DNA from: Escherichia coli
GTDB lineage: Bacteria > Pseudomonadota > Gammaproteobacteria > Enterobacterales > Enterobacteriaceae
DNA: 64,000 nt
Strand: one strand, 5' to 3'
NCBI RefSeq assembly: GCF_048403405.1
Contig: NZ_CP183129.1
Positions 26,263 to 52,499 of this stretch are shown piece by piece. The stretch's first letter is position 1, and the number at the start of each line of letters is the position of its first letter. The translations under genes and the position numbers were made by a program. Under the pieces are notes generated by a model. That model was not told the origin of the DNA and made no database searches. It saw only the letters and a list, made by a program, of their open reading frames with translations.

Positions 26263-26305
26263 AAAGCTGAAATCATTCGTGTGAATGATTTCAGCTTTTT
26301 TATTT
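26263..26305 (+). terminator. yehE rho-independent terminator
   Basis: 16-bp stem aaagctgaaatcattc / gaatgatttcagcttt with a gtgtg loop, then ttttatttat. Confidence 0.8.
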
Positions 26306-45794: not shown

Positions 45795-46835
45795 ATGAAA
45801 TCAGTGGTGAATGATACTGATGGTATCGTGCGCGTTGCAGAAAGCGTCATTCCTGAAATTAAACATCAGGATGAGGTACGGGTAAAAATTGCCAGCTCGG
45901 GCTTATGTGGTTCCGATTTACCCAGGATATTTAAAAATGGTGCACATTATTATCCAATAACGTTAGGCCATGAATTTAGCGGCTATATTGATGCGGTGGG
46001 ATCCGGTGTTGATGATTTACACCCTGGCGATGCGGTTGCCTGTGTGCCGTTATTACCCTGTTTTACTTGTCCAGAGTGTTTGAAAGGGTTTTATTCCCAG
46101 TGCGCAAAATATGATTTTATTGGCTCACGGCGTGATGGTGGGTTTGCCGAATATATTGTCGTTAAGCGGAAAAATGTCTTTGCTCTACCTGCGGATATGC
46201 CTATTGAGGATGGGGCTTTTATTGAGCCGATTACCGTTGGCCTGCATGCTTTTCATTTAGCGCAAGGTTGTGAGAATAAAAACGTTATTATTATTGGTGC
46301 CGGAACCATTGGCCTGCTGGCTATTCAGTGCGCTGTCGCGCTGGGAGCAAAGAGTGTGACGGCTATCGACATTAGCTCAGAAAAACTGGCACTGGCAAAA
46401 TCTTTCGGTGCGATGCAAACATTTAACAGCCTTGAAATGAGCGCGCCGCAAATGCAGGGCGTTTTACGCGAGCTGCGCTTTAATCAGCTTATCCTCGAGA
46501 CGGCTGGCGTCCCGCAAACCGTCGAACTGGCGGTAGAGATTGCCGGGCCTCATGCCCAGCTGGCGCTGGTGGGCACGTTGCATCAGGATTTGCATTTAAC
46601 ATCGGCAACGTTTGGCAAAATATTACGTAAAGAGCTGACGGTTATCGGCAGTTGGATGAACTACTCCAGCCCTTGGCCGGGGCAGGAGTGGGAAACGGCG
46701 AGCCGGTTGCTGACAGAACGTAAGTTAAGCCTGGAGCCATTAATCGCTCACCGTGGAAGCTTTGAAAGCTTCGCCCAGGCGGTGCGTGACATCGCTCGTA
46801 ATGCTATGCCGGGCAAAGTGTTGCTCATTCCCTGA
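45795..46835 (+). CDS. gatD: galactitol-1-phosphate 5-dehydrogenase (Zn-dependent MDR family)
   Basis: 346 aa; GHEFSG zinc-ADH motif; Rossmann GAGTIG. Confidence 0.9.
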   Translation: MKSVVNDTDGIVRVAESVIPEIKHQDEVRVKIASSGLCGSDLPRIFKNGAHYYPITLGHEFSGYIDAVGSGVDDLHPGDAVACVPLLPCFTCPECLKGFYSQCAKYDFIGSRRDGGFAEYIVVKRKNVFALPADMPIEDGAFIEPITVGLHAFHLAQGCENKNVIIIGAGTIGLLAIQCAVALGAKSVTAIDISSEKLALAKSFGAMQTFNSLEMSAPQMQGVLRELRFNQLILETAGVPQTVELAVEIAGPHAQLALVGTLHQDLHLTSATFGKILRKELTVIGSWMNYSSPWPGQEWETASRLLTERKLSLEPLIAHRGSFESFAQAVRDIARNAMPGKVLLIP

Positions 46836-46934
46836 AACCGCGGGCCAGCGTGATGCTGGCCCGGTATTGTGCAAAACAGATCATTCACCAATGGTCCCCC
46901 TTCGTTTACACTAGCCACAATTGAATATGGGTAA

Positions 46935-47714
46935 ATGACGATGAATTCATTCGAGCGAAGGAATAAGATCATCCAATTAGTGAATGAACAGGGAACCGTG
47001 CTTGTTCAGGATCTGGCGGGAGTATTTGCTGCCTCGGAAGCGACAATCCGTGCCGATTTGCGCTTTCTCGAACAAAAAGGCGTAGTTACGCGCTTTCATG
47101 GCGGTGCGGCGAAAATAATGTCCGGTAATAGTGAAACCGAGACTCAGGAAGTTGGGTTTAAAGAGCGATTTCAGCTCGCCAGTGCGCCAAAAAACAGAAT
47201 AGCGCAGGCGGCAGTCAAAATGATCCACGAAGGGATGACCGTTATTCTCGACAGCGGAAGTACCACAATGCTTATCGCCGAAGGTTTAATGACCGCCAAA
47301 AATATCACGGTGATTACCAACAGTCTCCCGGCGGCGTTTGCCCTTTCCGAAAATAAAGACATTACTCTGGTCGTCTGTGGTGGGACCGTCCGCCATAAAA
47401 CACGCTCGATGCATGGTTCCATTGCCGAGCGTTCATTGCAGGATATTAATGCCGATTTAATGTTTGTCGGTGCTGATGGTATTGATGCGGTTAATGGTAT
47501 TACGACCTTTAATGAAGGTTATTCGATTAGCGGGGCAATGGTCACAGCCGCAAATAAAGTGATTGCCGTTCTCGATTCATCGAAATTTAATCGTCGCGGT
47601 TTTAATCAGGTACTGCCAATCGAAAAAATCGACATTATTATTACCGACGATGCTGTGTCAGAGGTGGATAAACTGGCATTGCAGAAGACACGGGTGAAAT
47701 TAATTACGGTGTAG
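46935..47714 (+). CDS. gatR: DeoR-family repressor GatR (intact)
   Basis: 259 aa uninterrupted ORF (alternative ATG at 46941); N-terminal HTH, C-terminal DeoR sugar-binding region. Confidence 0.85.
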   Translation: MTMNSFERRNKIIQLVNEQGTVLVQDLAGVFAASEATIRADLRFLEQKGVVTRFHGGAAKIMSGNSETETQEVGFKERFQLASAPKNRIAQAAVKMIHEGMTVILDSGSTTMLIAEGLMTAKNITVITNSLPAAFALSENKDITLVVCGGTVRHKTRSMHGSIAERSLQDINADLMFVGADGIDAVNGITTFNEGYSISGAMVTAANKVIAVLDSSKFNRRGFNQVLPIEKIDIIITDDAVSEVDKLALQKTRVKLITV

Positions 47715-47725
47715 TATTGTTCTGT

Positions 47726-47759
47726 ATGCCGGATAAGGTTTTTACACCGCATCCGGCAT
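47726..47759. repeat. REP palindromic element
   Basis: atgccggataaggtttttacaccgcatccggcat, with inverted gccggat / atccggc arms, between convergent gatR and yegS. Confidence 0.6.
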
Positions 47760-47795
47760 TACGGATTCTCCCTGGTTCAAGAGAGAATAGTTTGA

Positions 47796-48695
47796 TTAAC
47801 GCAATAATGGACAATCTGGTGGTAATCGACAACGCAACGCCGCCGGAAGTATTTCAATATGGAAGTTTTGCCCACTCAACGGTTCGCCATCAAGATTAAA
47901 AGTGATTTCGTGTGGGGCTTGTATATCAAACCACGACGAAGCGCCTTCGATAATATTCGGGTTATCTTCGTCAGATTTTAAGGTTGATACGAGAGCTGGA
48001 AGAATTTCATCGCCGGTAAAAATGCGCAGTTGCAGCAGGCCATCGTTAATTAACGCGTTCGGGCACAATTGCTGACCGCCACCGGCCTGACGCCCGTTAC
48101 CAATACCAATGACCAGGGCGTCACCTTGCCAGTGAAAGTTTTCACCGCGGATCTCACAACGGTCCGGTTGCAGAGTATCCATGCGCATTAAGCCATGAAT
48201 GATGTAAGAGACGCCACCCAGCGCGGCTTTTAATTTTTCCGGCGTTTCTGTGGTAATACGCGTCCCAAATCCGCCTGTCGCCATATTAATAAAACAGGTT
48301 TGTTTGTTGACCTGCGCCATATCTATCGCAATGGCGTCACCGGCAATTGCCAGTTTCAGCGCCTTATCCAGTGCCTCAGGAATCCTTACACTGGTGGCAA
48401 AATCATTGGCGGTTCCTAATGGCAAAATTCCTAGCGCGGGTATGTCATCCCCCTCACACTGAATCAACGCCGTAGAAACTTCATTAATGGTGCCATCGCC
48501 ACCACCGGCAATCACCGTTGCGACGCTCAACTTCCGGGCCTCCTCTACATATCGTGCGGCATCGCCTTTCTCCCAAGTGACCCGCACATGGATCGTCATT
48601 CCTTCCTCACGCAACAGCATAATTGCTTCGCGCAATGGTAAATTGTCAGTACTTTTGCCATTAAGAATCAGTAAGCTGGCGGGAAATTCTGCCAT
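47796..48695 (-). CDS. yegS: lipid kinase YegS (DAGK catalytic domain family)
   Basis: 299 aa; GGDGT motif of the diacylglycerol-kinase-like family. Confidence 0.9.
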
Positions 48696-49109
48696 GATCG
48701 TATGTGCCTTTATGATTGGTCTGTAGATAGTGTAGAGCAGAAAAGAAAAGGTGGAGTCAGAACAGGATGAAAGTCGGAGGATAAAAAATCAGTTCAAGTA
48801 TGGAGGATTCGGTGGTTACCACCAGGAGCTTGCAATGGGGACAGTGAATGTTAACGGTAGCCATAGGTAAATTTCAAAAAAGAGCATATACCTAATATTC
48901 AACTAAACAGTGGCATCTTCAATATACTATTAAAAATATATTAACCCCCCCATGGGGTTACCCGGAAGGGCCTCCGTGTATGTAATTCCTACTTATGTAG
49001 GAAATGTTGTACAGAACATTTATTATAATCCTATTCAATTATAATAATCATGCCATTATTATATTTAAACACCAGAGCGTGTCGTTGGTATTTAATGGGG
49101 GAAGGTGAG

Positions 49110-49427
49110 ATGAAAAAGATAGCTGCTATATCATTAATTAGTATTTTTCTTATGTCTGGTTGTGCTGTGCATAATGATGAAACAAGTATCGGTAAATTTG
49201 GTCTTGCATATAAAAGTAATATTCAGCGTAAACTCGATAACCAATACTACACCGAAGCCGAAGCTTCTTTAGCCAGGGGCAGAATTTCTGGTGCAGAAAA
49301 TATAGTAAAAAATGATGCAGCTCATTTCTGTGTTACTCAGGGCAAAAAAATGCAGATAGTTGACCTGAAGACAGAAGGTGCAGGATTACATGGCGTCGCT
49401 CGTCTGACATTCAAATGTGGAGAGTGA
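49110..49427 (+). CDS. yegR: small lipoprotein-like protein YegR
   Basis: ORF 49050..49427 trimmed to the ATG at 49110 with SD (MKKIAAISLISIFLMSGCAVHN, 105 aa); lipobox MSGC. Confidence 0.7.
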   Translation: MKKIAAISLISIFLMSGCAVHNDETSIGKFGLAYKSNIQRKLDNQYYTEAEASLARGRISGAENIVKNDAAHFCVTQGKKMQIVDLKTEGAGLHGVARLTFKCGE

Positions 49428-49584
49428 GAATATTTTTTGGTAAGCGTCAAACATGCGCGTTCTGATTGTGCGTAGCCGGAACCTGTACGAGCACGATGCC
49501 GTTAAGTGAAAGGCATCGTGCTATGAAGGGGGATTCTATCGATGTGGTCAATGGAAGACGGTGACCAGGATACGGCTTATGCAT

Positions 49585-49671
49585 AAAAAATAAGCCCGTG
49601 TAAGGGAGATTACACAGGCTAAGGAGGTGGTTCCTGGTACAGCTAGCATTTTATGGGTTATGTTTTTCAGC
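49585..49671 (-). ncRNA. cyaR: CyaR (RyeE) sRNA
   Basis: Minus-strand sequence matches recalled CyaR (GCUGAAAAACAUAACCCAUAAAAUGCUAGCUGUACCAGGAACCACCUCCUUAGCCUGUGUAAUCUCCCUUACACGGGCUUAUUUUUU): terminator hairpin plus U6, anti-SD-like CCUCCUUA; adjacent to yegQ. Confidence 0.8.
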
Positions 49672-49705
49672 GAAACGGATGATAACCTTAATAAATGCAG
49701 CTGTA

Positions 49706-49721
49706 TGTGATCGGTTTCTAA
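49706..49721. promoter_or_regulatory. putative class II CRP site for the cyaR promoter
   Basis: TGTGA-N6-TCTAA centred about 42 bp upstream of the predicted CyaR 5' end; candidate -10 TATCAT at 49679-49684 on the minus strand. Confidence 0.4.
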
Positions 49722-49755
49722 GAATTTTCCATCCGGGAAAAATAATCGAAATTAA

Positions 49756-51117
49756 TCACTTACCGTGGGGGTTACGCGTGGTTTCCCCGGAGAAATTACG
49801 CATCAGGAGCGCGTAATTTAGCTCAAGATCCTGCGGCACCGGGATCCACACAGTATAACCATCGCCTGGTGCGACCGGCATAGCTTCACCTTTGGCGTTT
49901 TCCATATGCTCAAGGGTAAAGTTAATGTTGCCTTGCGGCGTCATCAGCTCAAGGCTGTCGCCAACGGAGAATTTATTTTTCACCGCTACCGCCGCGAGGT
50001 CGCCCTTGCGCTCACCGGTAAACTCACCAACAAACTGCTGGCGGTTAGAAACTGAATAACCGTATTCGTAGTTCTGATAATCGTCGTGAGTATGACGACG
50101 CAGGAAACCTTCGGTATAGCCACGATGCGCCAGACCTTCCAGAGTTTCCAGCAGGCTGGTATCGAATGGTTTGCCCGCAGCGGCATCATCGATAGCTTTA
50201 CGATAAACCTGTGCGGTGCGTGCGCAATAGTAGAAAGATTTGGTACGGCCTTCGATTTTCAGCGAATGCACGCCCATTTTGGTCAGGCGTTCTACATGGG
50301 CGATGGCGCGCAGATCTTTCGAGTTCATGATGTAAGTGCCGTGCTCATCTTCAAACGCGGTCATATACTCGCCCGGACGCTGGGCTTCTTCGATCATAAA
50401 CACTTTGTCAGTTGGTGCGCCGATACCCAGCGTCGGCTCAACATTTTGCACCGGAATCGGCTCGTACTTGTGTACGATGTTGCCAACGTCATCTTCTTTC
50501 CCTTCCTGGACGTTGTACTCCCAGCGGCAGGCGTTGGTGCAGGTGCCCTGGTTCGGGTCGCGCTTGTTGATATAGCCAGAGAGCAGGCAGCGACCGGAGT
50601 AGGCCATGCACAGCGCGCCGTGAACGAAGATCTCGATCTCCATATCCGGCACCTGATTACGAATCTCTTCAATCTCTTCCAGCGACAGCTCGCGAGAGAG
50701 GATCACGCGGGTCAGTCCCATTTGCTGCCAGAATTTCACCGTCGCCCAGTTCACGGCGTTAGCCTGTACCGAGAGATGGATCGGCATTTCAGGGAAGTGC
50801 TCGCGCACCAGCATAATCAGCCCTGGATCGGACATAATCAGCGCATCCGGCCCCATTTCCACCACCGGTTTCAGGTCACGGATAAAGGTTTTCAGCTTGG
50901 CGTTGTGCGGTGCAATGTTGACCACGACATAAAACTTTTTCCCCAGCGCATGGGCTTCATTAATGCCGAGCTGAAGATTTTCGTGGTTGAATTCGTTGTT
51001 GCGCACACGCAGGGAGTAACGTGGCTGGCCCGCATAAACAGCATCTGCGCCATAAGCGAAAGCGTAACGCATATTTTTCAGCGTTCCCGCCGGGGAAAGG
51101 AGTTCCGGTTTAAACAT
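49756..51117 (-). CDS. yegQ: peptidase U32-family protein YegQ (TrhP, tRNA U34 hydroxylation)
   Basis: 453 aa; U32 family features including a Cys-rich segment (CMAYSGRCLLSGY). Confidence 0.9.
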   Translation of the reverse strand: MFKPELLSPAGTLKNMRYAFAYGADAVYAGQPRYSLRVRNNEFNHENLQLGINEAHALGKKFYVVVNIAPHNAKLKTFIRDLKPVVEMGPDALIMSDPGLIMLVREHFPEMPIHLSVQANAVNWATVKFWQQMGLTRVILSRELSLEEIEEIRNQVPDMEIEIFVHGALCMAYSGRCLLSGYINKRDPNQGTCTNACRWEYNVQEGKEDDVGNIVHKYEPIPVQNVEPTLGIGAPTDKVFMIEEAQRPGEYMTAFEDEHGTYIMNSKDLRAIAHVERLTKMGVHSLKIEGRTKSFYYCARTAQVYRKAIDDAAAGKPFDTSLLETLEGLAHRGYTEGFLRRHTHDDYQNYEYGYSVSNRQQFVGEFTGERKGDLAAVAVKNKFSVGDSLELMTPQGNINFTLEHMENAKGEAMPVAPGDGYTVWIPVPQDLELNYALLMRNFSGETTRNPHGK

Positions 51118-51264
51118 AATTCTCTCGTTCTGATGACAGGTCAGATCCGCTTCACCTGATGAAGCGGCCAGGGGAGTGCCCCCACTTTAAGGGCGGGCAT
51201 TGTAGCGCTGTAGGGGGGAGCTGGTAAAGCGCCAGACGCCAACAACACGCGCCCGGCATCGTAA

Positions 51265-51597
51265 TTACGTATTGTCTTTCACCGTCTGGCTTGTGCCATT
51301 GGCTTTAACGGAGGCAATTCCGGTTTCACGAGATTGCGCGGTGGCGTACATCTGGCTGGAGCCGATAATTTGATGATTGGCGGCTTTCAGATTGAAATAG
51401 AATTTGCCGTTGCTTGCCGTTTTTTTCTCATAGCGTTCTTCTTGCGGGCTGTTGCTACGCACCGACGCGATACCCTTTTCCGCAGAGGCTTTTGAGGTAT
51501 ACAGCTCGCTGGTGAGGATAGTCTCACCATTGCCCGCTTTTAGCACAAACCGGAACTGATTATCACTGCTCTTACTGAGTTCAAACCAACCAGCCAT
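51265..51597 (-). CDS. yegP: UPF0339/DUF1508 protein YegP
   Basis: ORF 51265..51636 trimmed to the ATG at 51597 with AAGGAG SD (MAGWFELSKSSDNQFRF, 110 aa); two tandem DUF1508-like repeats. Confidence 0.85.
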   Translation of the reverse strand: MAGWFELSKSSDNQFRFVLKAGNGETILTSELYTSKASAEKGIASVRSNSPQEERYEKKTASNGKFYFNLKAANHQIIGSSQMYATAQSRETGIASVKANGTSQTVKDNT

Positions 51598-51776
51598 AAT
51601 GACTCCTTGATTGAAATTGCGTATCGAAAACAGCATCTAAAGGTACTGTTTGCCAATTAAAGTATGAGCGATTTTCTGGTGCCTGCCAGGGCGGAGAGAT
51701 CATGTCAGTTTGCTGACCATGCGTGGGATAATGTTGCCGGATCTGGTCTGAAGGCCATCTCCGGCAGGTAAAAATG

Positions 51777-52499
51777 TTAAACGATGCGGCAGGCGTCGGC
51801 TTCCCAGCGGTAACCGACGCCGTAAACGGCACGGATAAAGGACTGTTCGGCGTCGAGAGATTCCAGCTTGCGACGCAGGTTTTTAATGTGGCTGTCGATG
51901 GTGCGGTCGGTTACTACGCGGTAGTCGTCATAAAGATGATTGAGCAATTGCTCGCGGGAGAACACTTTTCCTGGTTCATGAGAGAGCGTTTTCAGCAGAC
52001 GAAATTCCGCAGGCGTCAGGTCAAGCATTTTTCCGCGCCATGAAGCCTGAAAACGACCTTCGTCGATAATCAACGGGCTTTCAGCATCCTGTTGCTGCAA
52101 CTCACGCTGCGGTTTGCAACGGCGCAAAATGGTTTTGACGCGCGCTACCACTTCCCGTGGGCTGTACGGCTTGCAGATATAATCATCTGCGCCAATTTCC
52201 AGCCCCAGCAGGCGGTCGATCTCTTCGATTTTTGCTGTCACCATCACGATCGGAATGTCAGAAAAACGACGAATTTCCCGACACAGCGTCAGGCCATCGG
52301 TGCCAGGGAGCATCAGATCCAGCAGGATCAGATCCGGTGGTGTCTGGCGCACATACGGCAGTACCTGATCGCCGTGGCTAATCAACGTTGGCGCATAGCT
52401 CGCAGCACGCAGATAATCAATGAGTAACTGCCCCAGCTTCGGTTCATCTTCCACGATCAAAATACGCGGTGTGTTTTCGTCGATTGGTAACTCGGTCAT
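51777..52499 (-). CDS. baeR: OmpR-family response regulator BaeR
   Basis: 240 aa; receiver domain plus winged-helix output; start overlaps the baeS stop. Confidence 0.95.

What the first reader, a model, noticed from the sequence alone, without database searches (positions are those of the whole stretch)
49428..49584. Short yegR-cyaR spacer containing a perfect 11-bp stem hairpin without a U-tract; K-12 prophage remnant apparently absent
Seen in sequence: agcacgatgcc (49490-49500) and ggcatcgtgct (49512-49522) form a perfect 11-bp stem with an 11-nt loop, not followed by a T-run on either strand, so it is not a canonical intrinsic terminator. Established knowledge (from memory): in K-12 a P2-like remnant (ogrK, yegZ) sits between cyaR and yegR; here only about 160 bp separate yegR from CyaR. 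Inference: this may be the unoccupied insertion site, and the hairpin could be an attachment-site remnant, a protein-binding palindrome or an RNA processing element.
Basis: partly seen in the sequence, partly recalled or inferred. Interest (0 to 1): 0.3.

Follow-up and report, generated by a model that had tools for sequence, protein, structure and literature searches.

The report
Empty P2 phage site beside CyaR
The short gap between yegR and the CyaR small-RNA gene is the known, here unoccupied, landing site of phage P2; the hairpin in it is real but is not part of that site, and it sits inside the worn-down remains of a much older P2-type insertion that brought yegR.

Summary
A perfect 11-bp stem (49490-49500 / 49512-49522, 11-nt loop, no T-run on either strand) lies in a 160-bp yegR-CyaR spacer, and the 629-bp K-12 remnant (ogrK, yegZ) is absent.

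This is the unoccupied P2 attachment site. But the 27-nt crossover core is 49585-49611, the 3' end of cyaR, 63 bp from the hairpin.

I found no sign that the hairpin is functional:
- It is single-copy.
- It matches no Rfam family.
- It has no U-tract.
- It varies within E. coli as much as its flanks do (5/22 stem sites against 30/99).
- It is not kept as a strong hairpin in a sister lineage.

New here: the whole 48783-49584 block (AT-rich DNA, yegR, hairpin) is an insertion into the ancestral cyaR-yegS junction. A degenerate core plus P'-like arm bounds it on the left. A P-arm-like segment (15/15 match to P2's Int site) plus the intact core bounds it on the right. It is an old P2-family fossil. 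Interest is low.

The parts
47796..48695 (-). yegS (lipid kinase), the ancestral neighbour of cyaR
   Evidence: 299-aa ORF. Annotated yegS in K-12 and other E. coli. In 51 of 66 species representatives its start lies 50-149 nt from the CyaR 3' end.
48696..48782 (.). Ancestral yegS upstream region, shared with Escherichia lineages that lack yegR
   Evidence: Homology to E. whittamii, Escherichia sp. E1V33 and strain E69 stops at about 48788-48792.
48783..48809 (+). Degenerate copy of the 27-nt P2 core (19/27), forming the left end (attL-like) of the old insertion
   Evidence: Alignment A3 puts it exactly where the yegR-less lineages have the cyaR terminator core.
48810..48838 (+). P'-arm-like sequence that follows the degenerate core
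   Evidence: Core plus P' of P2 against window 48783-48838: 38/57 identical, score 19 against shuffles 8.7 +/- 1.4, 0 of 2000 shuffles as good. Alignment A4 includes the clear attL of E. albertii.
48942..48960 (-). Terminator-like hairpin with a T-run on the - strand, inside the AT-rich part of the island
   Evidence: Consensus scan. Not followed up.
49110..49427 (+). yegR, a small lipoprotein-like gene (PF27694) and the cargo of the island
   Evidence: ORF, homologues. Related genes sit in unrelated contexts in other genera. GC content 0.31-0.42 against 0.50-0.55 in the flanks.
49432..49433 (.). Point where some E. coli lineages keep 169 bp more, the N-terminal remnant of a second lipoprotein gene
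   Evidence: tblastn to the 110-aa gene downstream of a yegR-like gene: 41% identity over 37 aa, E = 7e-7.
49490..49522 (.). The hairpin: 11-bp perfect stem, 11-nt loop, no U-tract
   Evidence: Single copy per genome. No Rfam match. Polymorphism equals that of the flanks. Weak in the sister lineage.
49539..49568 (+). Fossil P arm: tcgatgtggtcaatg is identical to the P2 Int arm-binding site, and the second repeat is decayed
   Evidence: P2 annotation, alignment A2. Local score 38 against shuffles 14.8 +/- 2.2, 0 of 2000 as good.
49569..49584 (+). Shortened remains of the IHF-site region of the fossil P arm
   Evidence: 16-nt gap relative to P2. Rare haplotypes keep a 12-nt insert, TCAATCCGTCTC, that resembles P2 TAAATCCTTTTA by eye. 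The sister lineage keeps the full length.
49585..49611 (+). Intact 27-nt P2 core (attB), which overlaps the 3' half of the CyaR terminator and its U-tract
   Evidence: 100% match to the P2 attP core. Prophage junctions fall at 49611/49612. K-12 has a duplicated core.
49588..49673 (-). cyaR small RNA gene
   Evidence: Rfam RF00112, 100.7 bits, E = 1.1e-19.
49756..51117 (-). yegQ / trhP
   Evidence: 453-aa ORF, K-12 annotation.

Best explanation
The spacer is the unoccupied state of the P2 attachment site that uses the 3' end of cyaR. P2 Int would exchange strands in the 27-nt core at 49585-49611, so a newly integrated prophage rebuilds the CyaR terminator from its own copy of the core.

The DNA between that core and yegS (48783-49584) is not ancestral chromosome. 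It is the eroded remainder of an earlier P2-family insertion at the same core. A decayed core plus a P'-like arm survive at the yegS side. A P-arm-like segment survives at the cyaR side. All phage genes are gone, and only a cargo cassette remains (yegR plus a now-destroyed second lipoprotein gene).

The hairpin lies in the interior of this relic, between the dead second gene and the fossil P arm. It takes no part in attachment and is not an intrinsic terminator. Most likely it has no sequence-specific function.

If yegR is transcribed (EvgA is reported to bind its promoter, and yegR was induced alongside acid-stress genes), the hairpin would fold as a -21 kcal/mol stem-loop in the 3' untranslated RNA. 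At most it would slow 3' exonucleases. That last step is inferred, not shown.
For: Core and junctions:
- The core is identical to the P2 attP core.
- K-12 carries the 629-bp remnant between two core copies.
- 78 prophage-bearing loci diverge from the window at 49611/49612.
- cyaR is listed as a P2 insertion site in strains W, K-12 and B (PMC3032704).

Relic:
- In E. whittamii, Escherichia sp. E1V33 and strain E69 the cyaR terminator abuts the yegS upstream region.
- Across genera the CyaR-to-yegS gap is typically 50-149 nt, against 892 nt here.
- The left end matches P2 core plus P' (0 of 2000 shuffles, z = 7.5).
- The right end matches the P2 P arm (15/15, then gtgaccag; 0 of 2000 shuffles).
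- Low GC content.
- The block is fixed in E. coli: the spacer is in 5400 of 5426 genomes and no genome has a contiguous ancestral junction.

Hairpin is not an attachment element:
- It is kept in K-12 and beside prophages.

Hairpin is not a terminator:
- It has no U-tract.
- In MG1655, yegR (11.9-fold) and the downstream ogrK (6.6-fold) rise together (PMC5811628).

No selection detected:
- Variable sites: stem 5/22, loop 4/11, rest of spacer 30/99.
- About 20 of 97 assessable loci (100 sampled without regard to the hairpin) have imperfect stems.
- The sister lineage has only a -6.2 kcal/mol fold, z = -1.3.
Against: - The three commonest stem variants (C49492T, C49499T, C49521T) all keep pairing as G-U in the yegR-sense RNA and break it in the opposite sense. 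This hints at RNA-level constraint, but the counts are too small (3 preserving against 2 breaking transitions).
- The sister lineage keeps a 6-bp stem around a shared loop motif (TTAAGTG..GAAAG). Three pairs are changed on both sides relative to E. coli, which could mean that the structure is conserved.
- No phage coding remnant is left in the block, and yegR is not found in any phage record other than records that include host flank. The cargo therefore cannot be tied directly to a phage.
- The left-end similarity is only 67% over 57 nt.
- No transcript 3'-end data were available.
Confidence: 0.6

Rival explanations
1. The hairpin is a functional 3'-UTR stem-loop of the yegR mRNA. RNA polymerase reads through it, and after Rho-dependent or distal termination 3'-to-5' exonucleases trim back to the stem. 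This fixes a stable 3' end and raises yegR mRNA half-life.
For: - It lies 62 nt after the yegR stop codon on the sense strand, with -20.8 kcal/mol and z = -5.6.
- The common stem variants become G-U pairs only in this sense.
- yegR has no canonical terminator before the cyaR terminator, which lacks a T-run in this direction.
- Co-induction of ogrK in K-12 fits read-through rather than termination.
Against: - The stem is no more conserved than its flanks.
- About one fifth of sampled E. coli have weakened stems.
- The distance to yegR varies by 169 bp between lineages.
- The sister lineage, with a 92% identical YegR, lacks a stable hairpin.
- yegR homologues elsewhere use ordinary terminators and have no such element.
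- A strain that has lost most of yegR still keeps the hairpin.
Confidence: 0.22
2. The hairpin is the decayed transcription terminator of the last operon of the ancient P2-family prophage. It would be the positional counterpart of the ogr/F-operon terminator, which sits 5 nt before the P arm in P2. It has since lost its U-tract.
For: - In P2 and in P2-like attR junctions of Citrobacter and Enterobacter, a G+C-rich terminator hairpin lies directly before the P arm.
- Here the hairpin lies 16 nt before the fossil P arm.
- In the sister lineage, homology to the window breaks exactly at the 5' edge of the hairpin (49490/49491). The hairpin therefore travels with the arm-side module.
Against: - There is no significant sequence similarity between the hairpin and the P2 ogr terminator (the local alignment starts only at tcgatg).
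- No phage in 50,697 records or in IMG/VR carries this hairpin apart from host flank.
- The 16 nt after the stem show no trace of a T-run.
Confidence: 0.12
3. The hairpin is junction-derived: a remnant of the attachment site or of imprecise prophage excision.
For: It lies in the spacer that holds attB and is adjacent to a real fossil of a P arm.
Against: - It is present unchanged in K-12 on the yegR side of the remnant.
- It is present beside 78 full P2-like prophages whose junction is at 49611/49612.
- The core is 63 bp away.
- P2 attP has no counterpart sequence.
Confidence: 0.02
4. The palindrome is a DNA binding site for a dimeric protein, for example a regulator of yegR or cyaR, or a nucleoid or recombination protein.
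For: Perfect 11-bp inverted repeat with arm centres 22 bp apart, about two helical turns. It is the best short-loop inverted repeat in the window outside a terminator.
Against: - It lies downstream of both convergent genes and far from either promoter.
- The arms vary in about 20% of E. coli, including changes that break the symmetry.
- It is single copy, so it is not a repeated operator motif.
- It is not conserved in the sister lineage.
- No known motif was recognised; that rests on memory only.
Confidence: 0.04

Closest known systems
Bacteriophage P2 attB at the 3' end of cyaR, and the K-12 cryptic remnant PR-X (ogrK-yegZ). From memory, this is the preferred site called locI in E. coli C.
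   Same: Identical 27-nt core at 49585-49611. Same neighbours (yegQ, cyaR, yegR, yegS). The window is the K-12 locus minus the 629 bp between the two core copies. cyaR is listed as a P2 insertion site in PMC3032704.
   Different: Nothing is integrated here. The hairpin is not part of this site.
P2 attP architecture: ogr terminator, P arm with Int sites, IHF site, core, Cox sites, P' arm
   Same: On the right side of the block the order is hairpin, P-arm-like Int site, then core. On the left side it is core', then P'-like sequence. Both mirror attR and attL of a P2 lysogen.
   Different: The second Int repeat is decayed. The IHF region is 16 nt shorter. The left core matches only 19/27. No int, cox, ogr or D sequence remains. 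The hairpin does not match the ogr terminator and has no U-tract.
E. albertii P2-like remnant carrying cdtABC at the same cyaR-yegS site
   Same: Cargo genes are bracketed by a P2 attL next to yegS and a truncated P arm plus core next to cyaR.
   Different: The E. albertii attL is well preserved (z = 41 against P2). Its cargo is a toxin operon of about 3.3 kb, and there is no yegR or hairpin.
Rho-independent (intrinsic) terminators
   Same: A stable G+C-containing stem-loop downstream of a gene.
   Different: No U-tract on either strand, an 11-nt loop, and likely read-through in K-12.
REP/BIME-type extragenic palindromes
   Same: An intergenic imperfect-to-perfect palindrome that can stabilise upstream mRNA.
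   Different: Single copy per genome. No REP consensus; a REP-like element in this window is at 47726-47759.

Membership tests
P2 attB / att core | Identity to the 27-nt P2 core AAAAAATAAGCCCGTGTAAGGGAGATT | tested here: met
   49585-49611 is 27/27 identical. The hairpin at 49490-49522 is outside it.
P2 attB / att core | Prophage-host junctions fall at this sequence | tested here: met
   78 occupied loci diverge from the window at 49611/49612. K-12 has the core on both sides of its remnant.
   The hairpin is identical in K-12 and beside full prophages.
Intrinsic terminator | G+C-rich stem-loop | tested here: met
   11-bp stem with 7 G-C pairs, -20.8 kcal/mol.
Intrinsic terminator | U-tract directly after the stem | tested here: not met
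   atgaaggggg on the + strand and cgtacaggtt on the - strand. Not reported by the terminator scan.
Intrinsic terminator | Stops transcription into downstream DNA | not testable with these tools
   Indirect only: ogrK, downstream of the hairpin in K-12, is co-induced with yegR (PMC5811628).
Degraded prophage / integrative-element relic | Block absent from related genomes exactly at a known att site | tested here: met
   E. whittamii, Escherichia sp. E1V33 and strain E69 join the yegS upstream region directly to the cyaR core. The short gap is general across genera.
Degraded prophage / integrative-element relic | Flanking direct repeats of the core with arm-type sequences | tested here: met
   Left: core' 19/27 plus a P'-like arm, 0 of 2000 shuffles. 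Right: P-arm-like plus the intact core, 0 of 2000 shuffles.
Degraded prophage / integrative-element relic | Remains of phage genes (int, ogr, D) | tested here: not met
   tblastn with P2 Int, Ogr and the D C-terminus finds nothing below E = 0.3.
Degraded prophage / integrative-element relic | Atypical base composition | tested here: met
   GC content 0.31-0.42 across 48900-49400 against 0.50-0.55 in yegS and yegQ.
Repeated extragenic palindromes (REP/BIME/ERIC) | Many copies per genome | tested here: not met
   Median of 1 place per genome in 5400 genomes.
Described structured RNA family (Rfam 15) | Match to a covariance model | tested here: not met
   Only CyaR at the gathering threshold. Nothing up to E = 1 over 48700-49600.
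Conserved RNA stem-loop | Stem more conserved than flanks, or compensatory changes | tested here: inconclusive
   Within E. coli: 5/22 against 30/99 variable sites, with no double changes. Against the sister lineage: 3 of 6 pairs changed on both sides, but only after a 2-nt register shift, and the fold is weak at z = -1.3.

The most novel reading that the evidence does not exclude
The yegR block is cargo of an ancient P2-family prophage that became fixed in E. coli and is now part of the EvgA-bound set of genes. The relic still shapes the biology of the site in two ways. First, the fossil P arm keeps one intact Int arm-type site next to attB. This makes the attL of new lysogens partly attP-like and may contribute to P2's preference for this site. 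Second, the hairpin acts as an RNA barrier that limits convergent yegR read-through into the CyaR terminator.
Probability: 0.1. Interest if true: 0.45.

Novelty: new member of a known kind. Interest (0 to 1): 0.2.

Why it matters
It matters little for the hairpin itself. It is a real, stable palindrome, but nothing shows that it is used.

The useful results are practical and evolutionary:

1. The attachment core is pinned to 49585-49611, inside the CyaR terminator. The spacer should be annotated as host-side flank. Prophage callers and two phage records wrongly include yegR as phage DNA.
2. yegR, an uncharacterised gene whose promoter EvgA is reported to bind, sits in what looks like an older P2-family relic at the same core. 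This makes cyaR a site of repeated, nested insertions, like the cdt-carrying remnant in E. albertii.
3. This explains why yegR is confined to E. coli and close relatives. It also warns that an "empty" attB can itself be phage-derived.

Tried and rejected
1. Hairpin as a feature of the yegR gene family: yegR-like genes in Enterobacter and three other contexts have no similar downstream sequence, and one has an ordinary terminator.
2. Hairpin carried by an extant phage: a blastn search of 50,697 phage records and an exact-pattern scan of IMG/VR returned only host flank of this locus. A YegR tblastn of phages gave the same result.
3. The 45-aa ORF on the - strand (49447-49584): no Pfam hit, and 25 of 29 haplotypes carry a 1-nt indel that shifts its frame.
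4. Longer-range RNA structure of the spacer: alifold on 29 haplotypes shows no compensatory pairs on either strand.
5. Tracing 49433-49538 to the 3' part of the dead second lipoprotein gene: only its N-terminal 37 aa are detectable, and only in lineages with the extra 169 bp.
6. Similarity of the left end to P2 under a stringent scoring scheme was not significant when core and P' were tested separately. It became significant only for the colinear core plus P' with scoring suited to diverged DNA.
7. More divergent alleles were sought through low-identity YegR clusters. They mostly returned noisy or ordinary E. coli contigs.
8. Literature: I found no paper on a transcript end or a function at the hairpin. 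De Lay and Gottesman 2009 was not held.
9. Searches were input errors.

Full report
**Observation**

The sequence read shows agcacgatgcc at 49490-49500 and ggcatcgtgct at 49512-49522. They form a perfect 11-bp stem around the 11-nt loop gttaagtgaaa. Neither strand has a T-run after the stem, and the terminator scan does not flag it.

The surrounding genes are:
- yegR, 49110-49427 (+).
- CyaR, 49588-49673 (-) (Rfam RF00112, 100.7 bits).
- yegQ/trhP, 49756-51117 (-).
- yegS, 47796-48695 (-).

The window is therefore the K-12 locus in reverse orientation, with a 160-bp yegR-CyaR spacer.

The hairpin alone folds at -20.8 kcal/mol as yegR-sense RNA and -19.3 in the opposite sense, both far below shuffles. 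The whole spacer gives z = -3.7 and -4.0. Simulated sequence gives about 0.3 such perfect short-loop hairpins per 64 kb, and the window has two. The hairpin is real and unusual for its spacer, but it is not an extreme event.

**The insertion site**

The K-12 interval carries the annotated cryptic prophage PR-X, with ogrK and the yegZ pseudogene, between cyaR and yegR. In the alignment the window matches K-12 from yegR through the hairpin up to aaaaaataagcccgtgta. K-12 then has 629 bp of P2 D'-ogr DNA, and the match resumes at a second copy of the same sequence that runs into cyaR.

The P2 genome record annotates this sequence as the attP core, with the following order:
- ogr terminator
- P arm (Int sites)
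- IHF site
- core
- Cox sites
- P' arm
- int

The window carries the core 27/27 at 49585-49611. That covers the U-tract, the 3' half of the stem and the loop of the CyaR terminator.

An exact-pattern scan of IMG/VR for the hairpin returned 78 loci. All are P2-like prophages at this locus with host flank. All align to the window from yegR to 49611 and then diverge into phage DNA.

The genome paper on E. coli W lists cyaR as a P2 insertion site that is occupied in W, K-12 (ogr-D') and B, and empty in Crooks (PMC3032704). That the site is the "locI" of the P2 literature rests on my memory only.

**The hairpin is not junction-derived**

It lies 63 bp from the core. It is present with an identical stem in K-12 on the yegR side of the remnant and beside the 78 prophages.

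**What else the hairpin is not**

- It is single-copy: the spacer is in 5400 of 5426 complete E. coli genomes, with a median of one place per genome. It is therefore not a REP-type repeat.
- It matches no Rfam family, even at E = 1.
- It is not a property of the yegR gene family. YegR (PF27694) has homologues at 48-83% identity in other bacteria, in unrelated contexts. None has similar downstream DNA, and one has an ordinary terminator.
- No phage carries it or yegR, except records that include host flank.
- It is unlikely to stop transcription. It has no U-tract. In MG1655, yegR (11.9-fold) and ogrK (6.6-fold) were induced together, along with ydeO and yfdX (PMC5811628). ogrK lies downstream of the hairpin on the same strand. 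EvgA is reported to bind the yegR promoter (PMC8147483). Read-through is my inference from these data, not a measured result.

**Is the hairpin under selection?**

The first sample was chosen by the hairpin itself, so I made a second scan with a flanking 21-mer. Of 100 loci, 77 have the perfect hairpin. Three are cut off by a contig end. About 20 have altered stems.

Across 29 haplotypes the variable sites are:

| Region | Variable sites |
|---|---|
| Stem | 5/22 |
| Loop | 4/11 |
| Rest of spacer | 30/99 |

The stem is no better conserved than its surroundings, and no pair shows a change on both sides.

The three commonest stem changes are C-to-T on the yegR-sense strand, giving G-U pairs in that RNA only. 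Two G-to-A changes break pairs. The counts are too small to read as direction-specific constraint. The variant hairpins still fold at -12 to -18 kcal/mol.

**A sister lineage**

One genome deposited as E. coli SCPM-O-B-8794, and four matching assemblies (L114, L215-L218), represent a separate lineage. Nucleotide identity to the window is 94.6% for yegQ and 87% for yegS. YegR is identical at 98 of 106 aligned positions. No RefSeq E. coli has this allele.

This lineage has the same arrangement. But homology to the window breaks at 49490/49491. The hairpin position holds only a 6-bp stem (AACATC/GATGTT) around a shared loop motif (TTAAGTG..GAAAG), at -6.2 kcal/mol and z = -1.3.

If a 2-nt gap is allowed, three of the six pairs differ from E. 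coli on both sides. That is suggestive of a conserved structure. It is equally expected from template-switch correction of a quasi-palindrome, and it rests on one comparison.

**The spacer is itself phage-derived**

*Right end.* Next to the core, 49539-49553 (tcgatgtggtcaatg) is identical to the first half of the annotated P2 Int P-arm site. Similarity continues through gtgaccag to 49568. A 16-nt gap then falls in the IHF region. The local score is 38 against 14.8 +/- 2.2 for shuffles, with none of 2000 as good. Rare E. coli haplotypes keep a 12-nt insert there that resembles P2 by eye. The sister lineage keeps a full-length arm.

*Absence in relatives.* A scan of one genome per species with a cyaR pattern gave 96 loci. 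In E. whittamii, Escherichia sp. E1V33 and strain E69 the cyaR terminator is followed directly by the yegS upstream region. There is no yegR, no hairpin and no arm. Homology to the window stops at about 48790. In 51 of 66 species where yegS is within reach, the CyaR-to-yegS gap is 50-149 nt. In the window it is 892 nt.

*Left end.* Exactly at the left breakpoint the window has aaaaaatcagttcaagtatggaggatt (48783-48809), a 19/27 copy of the core. It is followed by sequence that aligns with the P2 P' arm. Overall 38/57 positions match, with z = 7.5 and none of 2000 shuffles as good.

*A parallel in E. albertii.* E. albertii has a well-preserved P2 attL at the same place (z = 41). There it brackets three ORFs that I identify by size, order and recalled sequence features as cdtABC; no homology search was run.

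*Other features.* The block has low GC content. It retains no Int, Ogr or D coding sequence. It is fixed in E. coli. One strain has lost most of yegR by a 306-bp deletion and still keeps the hairpin.

*A dead second gene.* Some E. coli lineages carry 169 bp more at 49432/49433. This is the N-terminal remnant of a second lipoprotein gene that follows yegR-like genes elsewhere (tblastn E = 7e-7). The hairpin therefore lies between a dead gene and a fossil P arm.

**Conclusion and mechanism**

Shown:
- The core position and the prophage junctions.
- The hairpin persists in occupied sites.
- The block is absent from relatives.
- Both ends of the block resemble the P2 attachment arms.
- The polymorphism pattern of the stem equals that of its flanks.

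Inferred:
- A P2-family element once integrated at the cyaR core and was eroded down to its ends and a cargo cassette.
- Later P2 phages reuse the intact right-hand core.
- The hairpin is an interior leftover. It may derive from the terminator that precedes the P arm in P2-type phages, though no sequence similarity supports that.
- When yegR is transcribed, the hairpin would fold in the 3' untranslated RNA and could at most retard exonucleases.

I put about 0.6 on this overall picture with an inert or nearly inert hairpin, about 0.2 on a real mRNA-stabilising role, and little on the other readings.

**Novelty**

The empty P2 site at cyaR and the K-12 remnant are known. The hairpin is undescribed but unremarkable. 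Reading the yegR block as an older, nested P2-family relic is, as far as the searchable literature shows, not stated elsewhere. It is one more example of a familiar process.

Noticed in passing
L093 4950-8410 (E. albertii NBRC 107761): Between cyaR and yegS, E. albertii carries three ORFs of 258, 269 and 181 aa. From memory of their size, order and sequence features they look like the cytolethal distending toxin genes cdtA, cdtB and cdtC. They are bracketed by a well-preserved P2 attL and a truncated P arm.
   Followed up: partly
window 49432/49433; L188, L194, L197-L199, L201, L203-L206, L210: Some E. coli lineages have 169 bp more right after yegR. It is the decayed N-terminus of a second lipoprotein gene that is intact downstream of yegR-like genes in other bacteria (L090, L212).
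   Followed up: yes
L006-L083; phage records ON470606.1 and AY639599.1: IMG/VR prophage calls at this locus regularly start at the yegR start codon. Two GenBank phage records include yegR and the spacer, so host flank is filed as phage DNA.
   Followed up: partly
L092-L187: P2-type attR sequences (P arm plus terminator hairpin) abut the cyaR terminator in several Citrobacter and Enterobacter species. The 3' end of cyaR is therefore a P2-family landing site well beyond E. coli.
   Followed up: partly
L002 (E. coli ETEC4088, NZ_CP122629.1): The spacer is cut at window position 49478, 12 nt before the hairpin, and joined to truncated P2-like tail and baseplate genes. This is a strain-specific deletion into a prophage.
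   Followed up: no
L214 (E. coli FDAARGOS_1077): A 306-bp deletion removes most of yegR and the first part of the spacer (about 49167-49472) but leaves the hairpin and the fossil arm intact.
   Followed up: yes
window 48942-48960 (- strand): A terminator-like hairpin, TAACCCCATGGGGGGGTTA followed by a T-run, points towards yegS inside the AT-rich part of the island. Nothing obvious lies upstream for it to terminate.
   Followed up: no
window 47726-47759: A REP-like imperfect palindrome (ATGCCGGATAAGGT ... ACCGCATCCGGCAT) lies between the gatR-like gene and yegS.
   Followed up: no
window 26263-26298: A perfect 16-bp hairpin (GAAAGCTGAAATCATTC / GAATGATTTCAGCTTTTTT) followed by a T-run. It is the only other perfect short-loop hairpin of at least 11 bp in the window, and probably an ordinary terminator.
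   Followed up: no
window 49447-49584 (- strand): A 45-aa ORF starts next to the core. It has no Pfam hit, and most E. coli haplotypes have a 1-nt indel that breaks its frame, so it is not a gene.
   Followed up: yes
window 46400-52300: The flanking genes are only 96-97% identical to K-12, and just 11 of 5401 matching records share the spacer at 99% or more. The window therefore comes from an E. coli lineage that is rare among complete genomes.
   Followed up: no
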